DNA of 54,695 nt from the IMG/VR virus record IMGVR_UViG_3300009124_000017, positions 1 to 54,695 of that record, one strand, 5' to 3'. The notes beneath the pieces were generated by a model. It searched no databases. It worked only from the letters and a program-made list of their open reading frames with translations, and was not told where the DNA came from. Shown here piece after piece: positions 18,093 to 49,378 of the stretch. How positions within the stretch are numbered: the stretch's first letter is position 1; each line of letters opens with the position of its first letter. Made by a program: the position numbers and the translations under genes. Source of the DNA: a virus. Lineage: Duplodnaviria; Caudoviricetes.

Positions 18093-18174
18093 TGTCGCTG
18101 AGAGGACTTGAACCTCCACGAATTACTTCACTGGAACCTAAACCCAGCGCGTCTACCAATTCCGCCACAACGAC
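18093..18174 (-). tRNA. tRNA-Leu (UAG)
   Basis: GTCGTTGTGGCGGAATTGGTAGACGCGCTGGGT-TTAGG-TTCCAG..GTTCAAGTCC..; long variable arm. Confidence 0.9.
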
Positions 18175-18177
18175 GAA

Positions 18178-18250
18178 CTCCTCCACCTGGGCTCGAACCA
18201 GGGACATTCTGATTAACAGTCAGACGCTCTACCGACTGAGCTATAGAGGA
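18178..18250 (-). tRNA. tRNA-Asn (GUU)
   Basis: Cloverleaf TCCTCTATAGCTCAGTCGGTAGAGCGTCTGACT-GTT-AATCAGA..GGTTCGAGCCC. Confidence 0.92.
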
Positions 18251-18254
18251 ATGA

Positions 18255-18764
18255 TTAATGTCCCCAAATTTGAATCGTAAAACGACATTCGGGAACATTA
18301 AATGATACTGGAGTTACCATATGGTCTTCATGATTATCATTGACTACCATAGTGTTTTTTTGAGGAACAAAGGCATTCATGTTGCCTGTGTTTTTTTGTT
18401 CTTCAGTTTGATAAAGAAAAATTCCTCCTCCATTGATATACCATTTTTCGTTTAGGTATATTGTAGCACCAAATTTCTTTCCTTGGTCATTATGCCATGC
18501 AATTGCTGACATAGGTTGCCAAACATAAAACTGAACAACAGTTTTATCGAATGGAGGAACATTGTGCTTTACTTCATCTAAAATACGAGTTTTTAGATTT
18601 TCAGGTATCAAAGTAGAAATACAACTACCTTGGATACCTTGATTTAAAGGAGGTGTCCAAGTCAAACTACTTGAAGACCATACTTGATATGGTATTAATT
18701 GTTTGATAGTGCTTAAGCACTCTTGATATAAATTATCACTTAGAACATTATTAATGATTTTCAC
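18255..18764 (-). CDS. 2OG-Fe(II) oxygenase inserted in the tRNA cluster
   Basis: WHND..GATIYLN..W...GG.F...P.KN.MV...H.VTPV...RFTIQ. Start reassigned to GTG at 18764 (SD AGGAGG) because the longer ORF overlaps tRNA-Ala. Confidence 0.8.
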   Translation of the reverse strand: MKIINNVLSDNLYQECLSTIKQLIPYQVWSSSSLTWTPPLNQGIQGSCISTLIPENLKTRILDEVKHNVPPFDKTVVQFYVWQPMSAIAWHNDQGKKFGATIYLNEKWYINGGGIFLYQTEEQKNTGNMNAFVPQKNTMVVNDNHEDHMVTPVSFNVPECRFTIQIWGH

Positions 18765-18804
18765 ATTAACCTCCTGGTTATGTTCGCTATTCGCAAATAG
18801 CGAA

Positions 18805-18877
18805 TGGAGAATAGGAGACTCGAACTCCTGACAGCCTGCTTGCAAAGCAGGTGCTCTACCAACTGAGCTAATTCCCC
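18805..18877 (-). tRNA. tRNA-Ala (UGC)
   Basis: GGGGAATTAGCTCAGTTGGTAGAGCACCTGCTT-TGC-AAGCAGG..GTTCGAGTC. Confidence 0.93.
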
Positions 18878-18954
18878 TGGAGCCACAAGTCGGACTTGAA
18901 CCGACGACCTACGGTTTACAAAACCGTTGCTCTATCCAGCTGAGCTATAGTGGC
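18878..18954 (-). tRNA. tRNA-Thr (UGU), CCA encoded
   Basis: GCCACTATAGCTCAG..ACGGTTT-TGT-AAACCGT..GGTTCAAGTCC..GTGGCTCCA. Confidence 0.93.
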
Positions 18955-19007
18955 GAATGCTAATGTAGGACTTACAAGGCAGCGTCTGCTGATGCCTACA
19001 TTAACAA

Positions 19008-19081
19008 CGGGACTGAAGGGACTTGAACCCTCGACTTCCTGCGTGACAGGCAGGCGCTCTAACCGACTGAGCTACAACCCC
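19008..19081 (-). tRNA. tRNA-Asp (GUC)
   Basis: GGGGTTGTAGCTCAGTCGGTTAGAGCGCCTGCCT-GTC-ACGCAGG..GGTTCAAGTCC. Confidence 0.93.
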
Positions 19082-19602
19082 ATACGTTTGAATTGAAAAG
19101 GACCATTTTTTGAACCCCAAATTTGTTCTTTGGTGTCAAGGTCAAATCCTTTGTCTTCTACATTATACCACGAATCTCCAAGAATTGCAGTATTTTCTAA
19201 GTAAGTGTCTTTGTTTCCCCATCGGACAAAGCAATTACATCCTGGTTGAATTCTTCCTATAAAATGATCACCCATGTCCTCAAAAATTGTATCACACCCT
19301 CGTTTGTATGTCAAGGGACTTCCAGAAACTAAGTGAAGATTTTTGAAACCAAGATAACGTGACTTATCTGCTGGTTCCATTGATCTTACGATAATTCTAC
19401 CACGACATTCAGAAATTTGCAAGAAAAACTGACGATATGGTGTCTGGGTTTTGTTGAAGTATGCTTGCTCACCATAAAATAAACCGTGATTGTTTACTCT
19501 ACGATGTTCAACAACAATATATGCGTATTTTGATGGGTATGAAAATGCTTGAATTCTATTAGTAAATTTTCCTTCAAACCATTCATAAAATTTATCAATC
19601 AT
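19072..19602 (-). CDS. cpeT: CpeT/CpcT-type phycobiliprotein lyase
   Basis: GKFTNRIQAFSYPSKYAYI..H..FYGEQAY....PYRQ..GCD..F..C...DKGFD...QIWGS..GPFQF. Confidence 0.9.
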   Translation of the reverse strand: MIDKFYEWFEGKFTNRIQAFSYPSKYAYIVVEHRRVNNHGLFYGEQAYFNKTQTPYRQFFLQISECRGRIIVRSMEPADKSRYLGFKNLHLVSGSPLTYKRGCDTIFEDMGDHFIGRIQPGCNCFVRWGNKDTYLENTAILGDSWYNVEDKGFDLDTKEQIWGSKNGPFQFKRMGL

Positions 19603-19867
19603 CTTGGGGCAGCATAGAGGGATTATCTAATGGCAGTTCAAACATTAGTGGGTGCATTTCTTCTTCCACAAGATACGAAGAAACTTTATAAAGTTCTTCC
19701 ATATCAAAATCTCTGCTTCCGAGTGCTTCAGTTTGAATCTGAGGCATCTCTTCAACACCTTTAGGAAGTTCGTCGAAAGTATACGGCAGACCTTGTATGA
19801 AATACATACGCACAACACTACCTTCAAGATAAACGTATCTTTGAGTTAATTGGTAGGTTACAGTCAT
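19595..19867 (-). CDS. Cyanophage hypothetical protein
   Basis: ORF track. Start moved to MTVTYQ because of a GGAGG SD and an upstream late promoter. Confidence 0.7.
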   Translation of the reverse strand: MTVTYQLTQRYVYLEGSVVRMYFIQGLPYTFDELPKGVEEMPQIQTEALGSRDFDMEELYKVSSYLVEEEMHPLMFELPLDNPSMLPQDD

Positions 19868-19885
19868 GCCGCCCTCCGCTATCAT

Positions 19886-19893
19886 TATTTATA
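19886..19893 (-). promoter_or_regulatory. Late promoter TATAAATA overlapping the 3' end of tRNA-Leu(UAA)
   Basis: Exact consensus; positioned to drive the hypothetical gene and cpeT. Confidence 0.7.
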
Positions 19894-19975
19894 GGACCAG
19901 AGGGACTTGAACCCTCACGACCTAACGGTCAACAGATTTTAAGTCTGCAATGTCTACCAATTCCATCATGGTCCC
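19892..19975 (-). tRNA. tRNA-Leu (UAA)
   Basis: GGGACCATGATGGAATTGGTAGACATTGCAGACT-TAA-AATCTGT; long variable arm; GGTTCAAGTCC. Confidence 0.92.
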
Positions 19976-19979
19976 AAGG

Positions 19980-20051
19980 TGGGAAATGGTGGATTTGAAC
20001 CACCGACCTCCGCGTTATCAGCACGTTGCTCTACCACTGAGCTAATCTCCC
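19980..20051 (-). tRNA. tRNA-Ile (GAU)
   Basis: GGGAGATTAGCTCAGTGGTAGAGCAACGTGCT-GAT-AACGCGG..GGTTCAAATCC. Confidence 0.9.
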
Positions 20052-20060
20052 AATGAGACA

Positions 20061-20089
20061 ATCATACCTTAAAGGCAGTGGATTGTCAA
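20061..20089 (-). promoter_or_regulatory. Sigma70-like promoter TTGACA-N17-TATGAT
   Basis: Near-consensus boxes with 17-nt spacing just upstream of tRNA-Ile. Confidence 0.75.
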
Positions 20090-20162
20090 TAGTCCCTACG
20101 GGATTTGAACCCGTGTCGCCTCCGTGAAAGGGAGGTGTCCTAAACCACTAGACGAAGGGACC
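20090..20162 (-). tRNA. tRNA-Glu (UUC)
   Basis: GGTCCCTTCGTCTAGTGGTTTAGGACACCTCCCT-TTC-ACGGAGG..GGTTCAAATCC. Confidence 0.93.
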
Positions 20163-20166
20163 AAGG

Positions 20167-20239
20167 TGGGTTATGTTGGATTCGAACCAACGACTTACAG
20201 GTTAAAAGCCCGCTACTCTACCAACTGAGTTAATAACCC
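20167..20239 (-). tRNA. tRNA-Lys (UUU)
   Basis: GGGTTATTAACTCAGTTGGTAGAGTAGCGGGCT-TTT-AACCTGT..GGTTCGAATCC. Confidence 0.92.
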
Positions 20240-20333
20240 TGGCGGAAGTGGTTGGATTTGAACCAACGGATACATTATAGCATGTATCGGAGGATTAGCA
20301 ATCCTCTGCATTAAACCGCTCTGCCACACTTCC
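20240..20333 (-). tRNA. tRNA-Ser (GCU), CCA encoded
   Basis: GGAAGTGTGGCAGAGCGGTTTAATGCAGAGGATT-GCT-AATCCTC; long variable arm; ends GCCA. Confidence 0.93.
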
Positions 20334-41996: not shown

Positions 41997-42032
41997 ATTA
42001 TAGCATAAAAAAAGAGGGGTCGCAACCCCTCT
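41997..42032 (-). terminator. Intrinsic terminator fused to a promoter (TTGCGA-N17-TATAAT, extended -10)
   Basis: AGAGGGG-TTGCGA-CCCCTCT followed by a T run, then ATGCTATAAT. Confidence 0.75.
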
Positions 42033-42055
42033 CTCCTCTTATTGTATGATCAATA

Positions 42056-42220
42056 TCACTTGTTATAAGTGTGACCACGATAGCAGAAGGTGCCGTGGGT
42101 TTCCCCTTCACCTTGCTTGCACTCATACTGAACACCACGATAGGATGTCATATGAATTTGTGCATCGTGAATAGCAGCTGCTTTCTTGATCTGATTACGA
42201 ATGAGGTTAAGTGTGTTCAT
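42056..42220 (-). CDS. DUF4278-like small protein
   Basis: Twin YRG motifs (TSYRGVQY, FCYRGHTY); SD AGGAG; downstream of riboswitch-like aptamers. Confidence 0.75.
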   Translation of the reverse strand: MNTLNLIRNQIKKAAAIHDAQIHMTSYRGVQYECKQGEGETHGTFCYRGHTYNK

Positions 42221-42254
42221 TGTAGGTCTCCTAAAGGATGGGTGAGTTAACTCC

Positions 42255-42433
42255 CGTTCCTTCAGTCGTGTGCGTCCCACTTACAGTGAGGTGTTGCTTC
42301 CTTTATGGTTTCAACAATCTCTGTTCTGATAATTTTACTCATGTTTTCATTTGCTTCAATGCGACCGATCATCTCGGTAGCATCTTGGCAAGCAATAGAA
42401 GCATAGAGTAAAAGTTCAAGCATGGGATGAACG
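42255..42433 (-). ncRNA. Glutamine-riboswitch-like aptamer 2, interrupted by an ORF
   Basis: 5' arm CGTTCATCCCA and 3' arm TGGGACGCACACGACTGAAGGAACG mirror aptamer 1. Confidence 0.65.
42262..42423 (-). CDS. 53-aa peptide nested in aptamer 2
   Basis: Hand-translated MLELLLYASIACQDATEMIGRIEANENMSKIIRTEIVETIKEATPHCKWDAHD. Confidence 0.65.
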   Translation of the reverse strand: MLELLLYASIACQDATEMIGRIEANENMSKIIRTEIVETIKEATPHCKWDAHD

Positions 42434-42436
42434 CTC

Positions 42437-42480
42437 CGTTCCGCGACTTACTTGCGTCCCACCCGAGAGCGGGATGAACG
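42437..42480 (-). ncRNA. Glutamine-riboswitch-like (glnA-motif) aptamer 1
   Basis: CGTTCATCCC-GCTCTCGGGT-GGGACGCAAGTAAGTCGCGGAACG: P1 CGTTC/GAACG, P2 TCCC/GGGA, AAGTA element. Confidence 0.7.
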
Positions 42481-42487
42481 TATGGTA

Positions 42488-42535
42488 ATTATACCATACT
42501 ATGTATGCTATGACAACTGTATCGGTTGATACAGT
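42488..42535 (-). promoter_or_regulatory. Sigma70 promoter (TTGTCA-N17-TATAAT) with adjacent NtcA box
   Basis: GTA-N8-TAC at 42519-42532 inside the palindrome ACTGTATC-GGTT-GATACAGT. Confidence 0.75.
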
Positions 42536-42865
42536 TTAACCTCTCTTAACGTGTTCGATTGTAAAATCTTTCGAGTTTAGTTGAGTGCGAATGATTTGAC
42601 ATGCCAGTGCAGAATCACAATCTCCACATGTATAGACATCAACTGCTGCTTTTCTATCCTCTGGCCACGTATGAATACTGATGTGACTCTCAGCAAGCAT
42701 AACAATACCAGTCACACCCTGAGGATAGAACTTATGTGTCATGGTATTGAGGATTGTCATGCCAGCACAGTATGCTGCATCATGAAGAAGTTTTTTAATT
42801 AGTTGTTCATCATCCAACTTGTCTGCATCACATTGATACAGGTCCAACAAATAATGTTCACCCAT
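42536..42865 (-). CDS. speD: S-adenosylmethionine decarboxylase proenzyme
   Basis: HKFYPQGVTG..MLAESHISIHTWPE...A.VDVYTCG. Confidence 0.92.
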   Translation of the reverse strand: MGEHYLLDLYQCDADKLDDEQLIKKLLHDAAYCAGMTILNTMTHKFYPQGVTGIVMLAESHISIHTWPEDRKAAVDVYTCGDCDSALACQIIRTQLNSKDFTIEHVKRG

Positions 42866-49224: not shown

Positions 49225-49322
49225 AAAGTAAGACCATCAGGGACATGGTGGAGTTACTATTTCCCAAGACCCCTCGCCTTGGGATATGAGAGACGTGATT
49301 TAGACACCCTATAGGTCTCGGT
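49225..49322 (-). ncRNA. PhotoRC-II-like structured RNA in the psbA leader
   Basis: CCGAGACCTATAGGGTGTCTAAATCACGTCTC..TCCCAAGG/TCTTGGGA stem..AGTAA..ACCAT/ATGGT..TTACT; position upstream of a phage psbA. Confidence 0.7.
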
Positions 49323-49378
49323 TTGGGGTGTGGTGAGACATGTTACAAACTCGTTAAAGTTCGTTACATTGCTTCATA

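What the first reader, a model, noticed from the sequence alone, without database searches (positions are those of the whole stretch)
42255..42433. A whole 53-aa ORF nested in the P2 loop of a riboswitch-like aptamer
Seen: aptamer 2 starts CGTTCATCCC, identical to aptamer 1, and is followed immediately by ATG. The 10-nt P2 insert of aptamer 1 is replaced by ~140 nt of open frame. The last codons (TGG GAC GCA CAC GAC TGA; W-D-A-H-D-stop) are the 3' strand of the aptamer. TCCCA/TGGGA pairing would clamp the start codon to the end of the ORF. Inference: ligand binding loops out and silences the ORF, or its translation unfolds the aptamer and gates the downstream gene. Either would be an unusual RNA logic gate that covariance searches could miss.
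Basis: partly seen in the sequence, partly recalled or inferred. Interest (0 to 1): 0.78.

Follow-up and report, generated by a model that had tools for sequence, protein, structure and literature searches.

The report
Gene nested inside phage glutamine riboswitch
In this T4-like cyanophage a glutamine-sensing RNA switch folds around a real 53-codon gene, so sensing the host's nitrogen state and translating that gene should compete on one mRNA.

Summary
On the minus strand, CGTTCATCCC-ATG opens a 53-codon ORF (42423..42262). Its last codons, TGG GAC GCA CAC GAC TGA, are riboswitch core sequence.

The ORF is a real gene: PHROG 504, median dN/dS 0.25, and full-length relatives in 306 cyanophage records. 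The helix that clamps its start to its end (TCCCA/TGGGA) is kept and covaries in the related phage cassettes sampled.

The "two tandem aptamers" reading needs correcting. Covariation shows a nested fold. The first CGTTC pairs with the last GAACG. The middle GAACG-GAG-CGTTC is a hairpin. The two linkers form one shared P3.

So this is one glutamine-I (glnA, RF01739) aptamer whose P3 carries a second, aptamer-like module. The ORF sits in that module's P2 loop. Rfam's own model aligns two ORF-less relatives this way (43.6 and 50.2 bits). It misses the window (23 bits).

The ORF's GGAG lies in the inner hairpin loop and its AUG lies in P2. A pre-SD tract downstream can pair with the GAAG linker. 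An IF17-like gene follows.

Glutamine binding and the direction of control are inferred, not shown. I found no paper describing this layout, but two key papers were not readable. This scan has noted the same layout before on other cyanophage DNA.

The parts
42488..42516 (-). Sigma-70-type promoter TTGTCA-17-TATAAT with TG. The -10 box lies inside an inverted repeat (ATGGTA..TACCAT). The predicted start is a few bases before the riboswitch.
   Evidence: 11 of 12 matches; sequence. The transcription start site itself is inferred, not mapped.
42476..42480 (-). P1 5' strand (CGTTC) of the outer aptamer. It pairs with 42255-42259.
   Evidence: columns 1-5 with 270-274 are 100% paired. The innermost pair is CG in 72 and UA in 4 of 76 cassettes.
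42457..42474 (-). P2a hairpin of the outer aptamer (TCCCGC..loop..GGGTGGGA). In some relatives its loop also holds an ORF.
   Evidence: (three pairs with changes on both sides)
42449..42456 (-). J2/3, CGCAAGTA. It supplies the third-strand ACGCA and the AGUA half of loop E.
   Evidence: alignment to the RF01739 consensus CGGAAGUA; invariant in A1
42444..42448 (-). P3 5' strand (AGTCG). It pairs with 42264-42268.
   Evidence: Other cassette classes carry GAGCATA/TATGCTC, GATCG/CGATT and GGCG/CGCC at the same place.
42429..42441 (-). Inner hairpin H2, GAACG-GAG-CGTTC. The loop plus the closing G reads GGAG, the likely Shine-Dalgarno of the nested ORF.
   Evidence: CAACG with CGTTG 82, GAACG with CGTTC 142, discordant 0; GC 47, CG 29; p about 0.70; GGAG in 171 of 224 ORF-bearing against 1 of 74 ORF-less cassettes
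42423..42427 (-). P2b 5' strand (TCCCA). The last base is the A of the ORF's ATG.
42262..42423 (-). Nested ORF of 53 aa plus stop (PHROG 504; T4-GC_430 in isolate annotations). Predicted two-helix hairpin with invariant C12 and C47.
   Evidence: dN/dS 0.25; 306 phage records
42275..42279 (-). P2b 3' strand (TGGGA), read as Trp plus the first two bases of Asp.
   Evidence: closure probability: native median 0.93 against 0.35 for codon-shuffled interiors
42269..42274 (-). Inner J2/3 (CGCACA), inside the ORF's last codons.
42264..42268 (-). P3 3' strand (CGACT). Its last T opens the stop codon TGA.
42260..42263 (-). J3/1, GAAG, the second half of loop E. It can alternatively pair with the pre-SD tract.
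42255..42259 (-). P1 3' strand (GAACG) of the outer aptamer.
42228..42254 (-). Expression platform: a variable hairpin (GGGAG..CTCACCC), a pyrimidine tract TCCTTTA complementary to TGAAGGA, then the SD AGGAG.
   Evidence: a YTTYA motif abuts GG in 153 of 157 platforms
42056..42220 (-). Downstream gene of 54 aa (PHROG 545, T4-GC_937). It has a weak DUF4278 match, so it is IF17-like.
   Evidence: (E 7.9e-4, 20.2 bits, below the cut-off of 25.3)
42005..42034 (-). Intrinsic terminator: G+C hairpin followed by a run of seven T on the minus strand.
   Evidence: sequence. One search lists the hairpin, but only on the + strand.

Best explanation
The stretch is part of a self-contained early cassette: promoter, riboswitch, nested gene, IF17-like gene, terminator.

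**The RNA.** It is one glutamine-I (glnA-type) three-way-junction aptamer.
- P1 is the first CGUUC paired with the last GAACG.
- P2a is an ordinary hairpin.
- Loop E is split between the two linkers (AAGUA and GAAG).
- P3 (AGUCG:CGACU) does not end in a loop. It opens into a second three-way junction made of a hairpin with the P1 sequence (GAACG-GAG-CGUUC), an A, a second P2 (UCCCA:UGGGA) and ACGCA. This is an aptamer-like core fused to the first through the shared P3.

**The ORF.** The 53-codon ORF is the loop of that inner P2. Its GGAG is the inner hairpin loop. Its AUG is in P2. Its last five codons and its stop codon are the inner linker and the P3 3' strand.

**Shown by sequence comparison.** The nested fold, the long-range closure and that the ORF codes for protein.

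**Inferred.**
1. The RNA binds glutamine, because it keeps the nucleotides that contact glutamine in solved structures.
2. Glutamine stabilises P1 and loop E. That frees the YUUYA-GGAG tract, which otherwise pairs with UGAAGGA, and turns the downstream IF17-like gene ON, as in gifB.
3. The folded state buries the nested ORF's start. Ribosomes on the ORF open P2b, P3 and P1. The nested gene and the sensor therefore exclude each other, which probably gives reciprocal or time-gated expression of the two genes.
For: **Anatomy and conservation**
- 14 of 14 isolates share the anatomy.
- 424 phage records match.
- 306 records hold a full-length ORF relative.

**Nested rather than tandem**
- A3 with B5 is concordant in 224 and discordant in 0. 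A5 CGTTT goes with B3 AAACG in 8 of 8.
- the nested model has 99.9% of cells paired and 7 pairs with changes on both sides, reached by 0 of 500 shuffles.
- the cis model leaves 29 of 76 cassettes unpaired at both innermost pairs.
- RNAalifold predicts the outer helix and the inner hairpin unprompted, on ORF-less relatives and on ORF-bearing ones.
- Rfam RF01739 aligns L104 (43.6 bits) and L397 (50.2 bits) as one aptamer with a 38-46 nt insert in P3.

**P3**
- several complementary versions exist. They are AGTCG:CGACT, GATCG:CGATT, GAGCATA:TATGCTC and GGCG:CGCC, always next to AAGTA and xAAG.

**P2 across ORFs**
- TCCCA/TGGGA, CCCCA/TGGGG, GTCTA/TAGAC, GATTA/TAATC. For ORFs ending inside the helix: TCTCA/TGAGA, TCTTA/TAAGA, TCCTA/TAGGA.

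**Coding**
- dN/dS 0.25. Codon-position entropies are 0.96/0.47/1.30, but 0.51/0.33/0.42 in the six codons that overlap the core.

**Closure**
- native sequence closes better than codon-shuffled in 35 of 38 cassettes.

**SD in the inner loop**
-.

**Expression platform**
- UAAAG goes with CUUUA in 33 of 33. No A-C combination occurs.

**Ligand contacts and ON switching**
- These are taken from passages of PMC6698751 and PMC6212724.
Against: - No experiment was done: ligand binding, the transcription start and translation of either ORF are all inferred.
- Only one position varies in each of the two P1-type helices, so nested against cis rests on two covarying pairs plus P3, the loop-E logic and the model alignments. 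The variants may stem from few mutational events.
- In the commonest ORF-less class, the third P3 pair is A-C in 45 of 57 cassettes.
- RNAalifold proposes other linker registers.
- 6 of 8 relatives given to Rfam had no hit at gathering score.
- L035 and L037 lack the outer 5' half and still keep the ORF-bearing module, so the full nested fold is not indispensable.
- In CAACG-type cassettes GGAG is present in only 26 of 75.
- The plain thermodynamic fold of the window gives P2b p about 0.43 and does not form the outer helix.
- The metatranscriptome contigs give no ends and no strand.
Confidence: 0.62

Rival explanations
1. Passenger gene. The nested fold is real and regulates only the downstream IF17-like gene. 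The P2 loop projects away from the core and is simply a tolerated landing place for small genes, so the ORF has no regulatory link to the sensor beyond being transcribed with it.
For: - ORF-less relatives with the same RNA are common: 74 of 298 cassettes.
- Metatranscriptome contigs of relatives skip the ORF.
- Unrelated cargo occurs: a 173-aa HNH-like ORF sits in the P2a loop of L075.
- Either P2a, P2b or both can carry an ORF.
- P3 is said to project to one side in the solved structure.
Against: - The ATG is fixed to one or two positions of the helix in 236 of 236 nested ORFs.
- Stop codons lie at two fixed places.
- GGAG appears in the inner hairpin loop almost only when an ORF is present (171 of 224 against 1 of 74).
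- The small-protein families found in P2 loops are related to each other. The family is found once per phage record.
- Native ORF interiors favour closure over codon-shuffled ones.
- Whatever the intent, a ribosome on the ORF must open P2b, P3 and P1.
Confidence: 0.22
2. Two independent tandem aptamers in cis, as the first reader drew them. Each has its own P1, and the second has the ORF in its P2 loop, giving pseudo-cooperative control as described for glutamine doublets.
For: - Most sequences have identical P1 strands, so either pairing is possible.
- The review PMC9481103 lists 157 glutamine doublets as tandem, pseudo-cooperative systems (passages).
- Rfam gives a weak cis hit for the first unit (23 bits).
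- L035 and L037 show that the second unit can stand alone.
Against: - The cis model has mismatches at both innermost pairs in 29 of 76 cassettes. In the larger set the cis mismatches number 62 and 69 cassettes, while the crossed pairs are always standard.
- Each cis unit has only half of loop E.
- The Rfam model scores the outer reading above its cut-off in two ORF-less relatives.
- RNAalifold picks the nested helices.
Confidence: 0.07
3. Relic or coincidence. The conserved flanks serve coding (the WDA[HN]D tail) and translation initiation, and no ligand-sensing RNA fold forms across the ORF.
For: - The window's element fails Rfam's gathering scores.
- The 3' half lies within codons.
- No direct binding data exist.
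Against: - The same RNA words flank ORFs that end elsewhere, and they also flank short hairpins with no ORF.
- Third-codon-position variation collapses only in the last six codons.
- Compensatory changes span 150-200 nt.
Confidence: 0.05

Closest known systems
Glutamine-I riboswitch (glnA RNA motif, Rfam RF01739), for example the Synechocystis gifB/IF17 leader (PMC6212724)
   Same: - Same P1 words CGUUC/GAACG, J1/2 A, a P2 of the uCccc/gggGa type, J2/3 CG(G/C)AAGUA, a P3, and J3/1 GAAG (loop E).
- Precedes a DUF4278/IF17-like small gene.
- Plausible ON switching by freeing the ribosome site.
   Different: - P3 is not a short hairpin. It opens into a second aptamer-like junction that holds a 53-codon gene.
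- The span is 226 nt (42480..42255) instead of about 60.
- It fails the family's gathering score in the window.
- It is encoded by a phage.
Glutamine-II riboswitch (Downstream-peptide motif, RF01704; structure in PMC6698751)
   Same: - The inner module, like glutamine-II, has the P1-type helix, the stacked hairpin and a CGCA third strand, and it has no loop E.
- RF01704 is the best weak Rfam hit in the window (26.3 bits).
   Different: - No pseudoknot: the P1-type helix is a plain hairpin closed by a 3-4 nt loop.
- The module sits inside another aptamer's P3.
Tandem or doublet glutamine riboswitches and the two-aptamer glycine riboswitch (review PMC9481103)
   Same: Two sensor cores for one ligand on one leader, with a steeper or combined response expected.
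   Different: The cores are not side by side with their own P1 helices. They are nested and share P3, so neither can fold without the other's strands. One of them encloses a gene. The word 'nested' does not occur in that review.
Homing-endonuclease ORFs in peripheral loops of group I introns (from my own knowledge, not checked here)
   Same: A protein-coding ORF sits in a loop of a structured, functional RNA whose closing helix must form around it. One relative (L075) indeed carries an HNH-like ORF in P2a.
   Different: The host RNA here is a ligand sensor in an mRNA leader, not a self-splicing intron. The usual cargo is a family of small two-cysteine proteins whose start and stop codons are built into the helix.
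Long-range RNA pairing opened by translation in RNA phage MS2, and leader-peptide attenuation (from my own knowledge, not checked here)
   Same: Ribosomes on an upstream ORF melt a structure that decides expression of the next cistron.
   Different: Here the structure that is melted is itself a metabolite-binding aptamer, so two inputs (ligand and translation) meet on one fold.

Membership tests
Glutamine-I riboswitch (RF01739) | P1 helix CGUUC/GAACG closing the aptamer | tested here: met
   42480-42476 pairs with 42259-42255. 100% of cells are paired on 76 cassettes, with CG changed to UA in 4. RNAalifold predicts the helix.
Glutamine-I riboswitch (RF01739) | J1/2 A followed by a P2 hairpin of the uCccc/gggGa type | tested here: met
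   P2a at 42474-42457. Three pairs show changes on both sides. It aligns to the model.
Glutamine-I riboswitch (RF01739) | J2/3 CGGAAGUA and J3/1 GAAG, which together form loop E | tested here: met
   CGCAAGTA at 42456-42449 and GAAG at 42263-42260. They lie in the same aptamer only in the nested reading. In the consensus alignment of the relatives the model matches both. The window has C where the consensus has G (CGC against CGG). Some relatives have CGG.
Glutamine-I riboswitch (RF01739) | A P3 helix between the loop-E halves | tested here: met
   AGTCG:CGACT is 99.7% paired. Other complementary versions occur in other classes. It is atypical in having a junction rather than a loop at its end. 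In one class the third pair is A-C.
Glutamine-I riboswitch (RF01739) | Score at or above Rfam's gathering cut-off (35 bits) | tested here: not met
   In the window only 42433-42482 scores, at 23.0 bits, and nothing is reported at gathering score. The ORF-less relatives L104 and L397 score 43.6 and 50.2 bits over the whole nested unit. 6 of the 8 loci given had no hit.
Glutamine-I riboswitch (RF01739) | Selective binding of L-glutamine | not testable with these tools
   The nucleotides named as ligand contacts in PMC6698751 (C1:G59, G2:C58 and a G of the third strand) are invariant in both modules.
Glutamine-II riboswitch (RF01704) | Pseudoknot between the 5' CGUUC and a GGAACG held in the loop of a 3' hairpin | tested here: not met
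   The best hit is 26.3 bits, below the cut-off of 33, and several pairs of the 3' hairpin are flagged non-standard. The GAACG strands pair in nested helices, not as a pseudoknot.
DUF4278 / IF17-like proteins (downstream gene) | Match to PF14105 above its curated cut-off | tested here: not met
   E 7.9e-4, 20.2 bits against a cut-off of 25.3, covering residues 26-53. The gene is a clear member of PHROG 545. Calling it IF17-like rests on this weak match and on its position behind a glutamine switch.

The most novel reading that the evidence does not exclude
One ligand-sensing fold controls two genes in opposite directions and takes translation as a second input. At low glutamine, or early during transcription, ribosomes load at the GGAG/AUG of the inner module. 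They make the small two-cysteine protein and hold the sensor open. When the ORF is clear and glutamine is present, the two P3-fused cores close. That buries the ORF's start and releases the ribosome site of the IF17-like gene. This would be a natural riboswitch that contains a gene as a working part, built from a head-to-head, P3-sharing pair of aptamers that may bind two glutamines cooperatively.
Probability: 0.35. Interest if true: 0.9.

Novelty: new variant of a known kind. Interest (0 to 1): 0.8.

Why it matters
Riboswitch aptamers are treated as compact non-coding units that sit ahead of the genes they control. Here a whole gene is a loop of the sensor, with its start and stop codons built into sensor helices, and this layout is widespread in marine cyanomyoviruses.

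If the coupling is functional, it would be a natural example of an RNA device that combines a metabolite signal with its own translation. It would also let a phage read host glutamine early in infection and choose between a small unknown protein and a likely glutamine-synthetase-inactivating factor.

It shows a blind spot as well. Covariance-model scans miss aptamers with long insertions. Adjacent "tandem" hits may in fact be nested units that share helices. Both claims can be tested directly on a roughly 270-nt RNA.

Tried and rejected
**Rfam.** At gathering score, Rfam found nothing at the locus on the window or on the own record.

**NtcA box.** Another first-reader note on this stretch names an NtcA box. 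By eye the promoter holds GTA-N9-TAC overlapping the -10 box, not the GTA-N8-TAC that I recall as the consensus. I did not pursue it.

**Nested protein.**
- Pfam gave no family.
- The ESM Atlas gave only 'hypothetical protein' clusters.
- The AlphaFold model is a confident two-helix hairpin (pLDDT 88.8), but Foldseek against the PDB gave no match at E <= 0.001. Its function stays unknown.

**HNH-like ORF of L075.** No Pfam hit at E <= 0.01. 'HNH-like' is my reading of its motifs only.

**RNA evidence.** One search for sequencing runs gave only metatranscriptome runs holding a small share of the words. Laying four of them showed contigs of relatives over the conserved parts. One 189-nt contig spans 42253-42436. 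The contigs show no ends, no strand and no proof of transcription. Parts without cover are not counted as evidence.

**Cellular genomes.** The pattern scan of cellular genomes gave 105 hits, about what I estimate by chance for that pattern. Only 4 have riboswitch context, and all 4 lie on MAG contigs. This does not show absence from cyanobacteria, because the pattern was exact and narrow.

**ORF interior.** The interior helices that RNAalifold predicts are poorly conserved, so I claim none.

**Literature.** Searches, and passages read, gave no description of an ORF inside a glutamine aptamer or of nested cores. Ames and Breaker 2011 (PMC3127080) and Ren et al. 2015 are not held. Supplements are closed. 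Either could hold such a description.
Full report
**What the window is.** It is a T4-like cyanomyovirus. The stretch 42000-42560 is 98.2% identical to Synechococcus phage S-H9-2. Nearby genes are speD, thyX and phoH. All genes here run on the minus strand.

**The observation.** Read on the minus strand, a promoter-like site TTGTCA-17-TATAAT (42516..42488) is followed by this string: CGTTC-A-TCCCGCTCTCGGGTGGGA-CGCAAGTA-AGTCG-CG-GAACG-GAG-CGTTC-A-TCCCA-TG...(ORF)...TGGGA-CGCACA-CGACT-GAAG-GAACG-GG. The ORF has 53 codons (42423..42262).

**The ORF is a gene.**
- It matches PHROG 504 end to end (E 3.5e-23). It is annotated as a hypothetical protein (T4-GC_430) in many isolates.
- tblastn finds a full-length relative in 306 of 50,697 phage records, once per record, all cyanophages.
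- For 98 distinct 53-codon versions (1102 pairs with dS above 0.05), median dN/dS is 0.25, and 98% of pairs are below 1.
- Variation by codon position is 0.96/0.47/1.30 bits in codons 2-47. It is 0.51/0.33/0.42 in the last six codons, where an RNA constraint is laid over the coding one.
- Cys12 and Cys47 are invariant in 61 aligned relatives.
- AlphaFold gives a confident two-helix hairpin with no significant PDB neighbour.

**How widespread the layout is.**
- All 14 other isolates fetched share it, in different genomic neighbourhoods: after speD, after nrdB, and before talC or a carbamoyltransferase gene.
- In 236 parsed nested ORFs the ATG begins at the fifth base of the P2 5' strand in 231 and one base later in the other 5.
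- Stops fall at two places. Either 15 nt after the start of the P2 3' strand, that is inside P3 and J3/1 (200 of 211 ORFs in the second P2). Or on the first three bases of the P2 3' strand itself.
- In the second case the 5' strand follows the stop codon: TCTCA/TGAGA, TCTTA/TAAGA and TCCTA/TAGGA.
- Across ORFs of the window's family the helix also appears as CCCCA/TGGGG, GTCTA/TAGAC, GATTA/TAATC and TCCCT/AGGGA.

**Tandem or nested.** In most sequences the two CGTTC and the two GAACG words are identical, so the partners are ambiguous. A common variant resolves this. Label the four words A5, A3, B5 and B3 in 5' to 3' order.
- In 230 distinct full cassettes, A3 = CAACG always goes with B5 = CGTTG (82). 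A3 = GAACG always goes with B5 = CGTTC (142). None is discordant.
- A5 = CGTTT goes with B3 = AAACG in 8 of 8.
- The cis combinations are mismatched in 62 and 69 cassettes. The third scan selected for CAACG but left B5 free.
- I aligned 76 dereplicated ORF-bearing cassettes. These are the cassettes of at most 240 nt among 118 parsed, which came from 155 dereplicated out of 193.
- On that alignment the nested structure has 99.9% of cells paired and 7 pairs with changes on both sides, reached by 0 of 500 shuffles.
- The cis structure leaves 29 of 76 unpaired at the innermost pair of both P1 helices.
- RNAalifold, given no hint, predicts the outer helix and the inner hairpin. It does so on 57 ORF-less relatives and on the 76 ORF-bearing ones.

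**The shared P3.** With the nested helices enforced, the fold pairs GUCG of the first linker with CGAC of the second.
- In 298 cassettes this helix appears in several versions: AGTCG:CGACT (the majority), G-U intermediates, GATCG:CGATT, GGCG:CGCC and GAGCATA:TATGCTC. It is always flanked by AAGTA on one side and xAAG-GAACG on the other.
- That is exactly the layout of the glutamine-I consensus: P1, A, P2, CGGAAGUA, P3, GAAG, P1.
- Rfam's own model confirms it. On two ORF-less relatives it aligns one aptamer from the first CGUUC to the last GAACG, with the inner part as a 38- or 46-nt insert in P3, at 43.6 and 50.2 bits against a cut-off of 35. Six of the eight loci given had no hit.
- In the window the insert is about 190 nt, and only the first part scores, at 23 bits. 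That is why scans miss the element.
- Weak points: in the commonest ORF-less class the third P3 pair is A-C in 45 of 57. RNAalifold also offers other linker registers.

**The inner module.** Inside P3 lie CG, the hairpin GAACG-GAG-CGUUC, an A, the second P2 and CGCA(C/A)A. These are the P1, P2 and third-strand words of a glutamine aptamer, connected so that P1 is capped by a loop and P3 is open. It has no loop E, like glutamine-II. Passages of PMC6698751 place the ligand against C1:G59, G2:C58 and a G of the third strand, and say that P3 projects to one side. Those bases are invariant in both modules. Whether the inner module binds glutamine is open.

**Links between fold and translation.**
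- The inner hairpin loop, together with its closing G, reads GGAG in 171 of 224 cassettes with an ORF in the second P2. It does so in 1 of 74 without (not corrected for relatedness). The figure is 145 of 149 in GAACG-type cassettes but only 26 of 75 in CAACG-type ones. The spacing to the AUG is 10 nt.
- In 38 natural cassettes (every second row of the 76), the predicted probability of the clamp helix has a median of 0.93. After shuffling the ORF's codons it is 0.35. Native is higher in 35 of 38. The ORF interior therefore seems to fold on itself and let the ends meet. In the window itself the values are 0.63 against 0.34.

**The downstream gene.**
- Its platform keeps a YUUYA tract abutting GG(AG) in 153 of 157 distinct cases, 8-10 nt before the ATG in nearly all.
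- The tract is complementary to J3/1. UAAAG goes with CUUUA in 33 of 33. UGAAG goes with C (67) or U (51) at the facing position. No A-C combination occurs.
- This fits the model given for gifB, in which glutamine melts an inhibitory helix and turns translation ON (PMC6212724, passages).
- The gene is PHROG 545 with a sub-threshold DUF4278 match. DUF4278 marks the glutamine-synthetase-inactivating factor IF17.

**Relatives that inform the history.**
- ORFs occur in the first P2, in the second, or in both (L008, L046, L052 and others).
- The small-protein families are related. Short against long second-P2 families give 97.9% hhalign probability. The first-P2 family gives 52-67%, with the two cysteines aligned.
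- One group (L075, L111, L241, L394) has a 173-aa HNH-like ORF in the first P2 and a plain hairpin as the second.
- L035 and L037 have lost the outer 5' half.
- L080-type loci have about 60 extra nucleotides in the inner hairpin loop.
- In one genome per species of bacteria and archaea, only 4 of 105 pattern matches had riboswitch context, all on MAG contigs.

**Known or new.**
- The sensor class is known.
- Weinberg 2010 (passages) and the tandem-riboswitch review (passages) describe glutamine doublets as tandem. Neither mentions nesting or an enclosed ORF.
- My searches found no such description.
- Ames and Breaker 2011 and Ren 2015 could not be read, and supplements are closed.
- Earlier notes of this scan (read after my analysis) report the same layout in other cyanophage genomes and also call the cores interlocked. 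They agree with my result but are not independent evidence.

**Verdict.** The fold and the coding status are well supported. Ligand binding, the ON switch and the reciprocal or gated logic are inferences that a handful of ordinary experiments would settle.

Noticed in passing
window 42481-42500 (minus strand); also L015-L439 upstream of the riboswitch: The -10 box of the cassette's promoter sits inside an inverted repeat (ATGGTA-TAAT-TACCAT). The arms change together in relatives (GGTCTATAATAGACC, GGTAGTATCTACC, GATAGAGTATACTATC). This could be an operator or a hairpin over the -10 box. A first-reader note calls this an NtcA box, but the spacing I see is GTA-N9-TAC.
   Followed up: partly
L075:33-600 (also L111, L241, L394): A 173-aa ORF with HNH-like motifs (no Pfam hit) occupies the loop of the first P2 (TCCCA...TGGGA, about 520 nt apart). 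It ends in W-D-A-S-R-A, read from the aptamer core. In these loci P3 is GAGCATA:TATGCTC and the second P2 is a plain hairpin.
   Followed up: partly
window 49249-49345 (minus strand): A PhotoRC-II RNA scores 76 bits, well above its gathering score of 39.
   Followed up: no
window 18093-20333 (minus strand): A cluster of ten tRNA genes.
   Followed up: no
window 41997-42025 (minus strand): A second promoter-like site (TTGCGA-17-TATAAT, 10 of 12) overlaps the cassette's terminator. The next small genes may therefore have their own start.
   Followed up: no
L477, L491, L516, L537 (genome collection): The cassette occurs on contigs of MAGs. Those whose titles I saw are labelled Verrucomicrobiales (L477), uncultured bacterium (L491) and Euryarchaeota (L516); L537's title was not shown. 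These are probably cyanophage contigs binned by mistake.
   Followed up: no
L332, L338, L388, L391, L397: These relatives have the canonical CGGAAGTA linker and other P3 words (for example GGCTAACG with CGTTGAGC). They precede different small genes. L388 and L391 start an ORF right after ATC(T/C)-ATG in the second P2. The nested layout may therefore reach beyond the cyanomyovirus cassette studied here.
   Followed up: no
window 42275-42436, runs X1-X4: Metatranscriptome contigs join across the ORF with short replacements of 9 or 27 letters. These are relatives with a plain hairpin in place of the gene, present in the same samples as ORF-bearing forms.
   Followed up: partly
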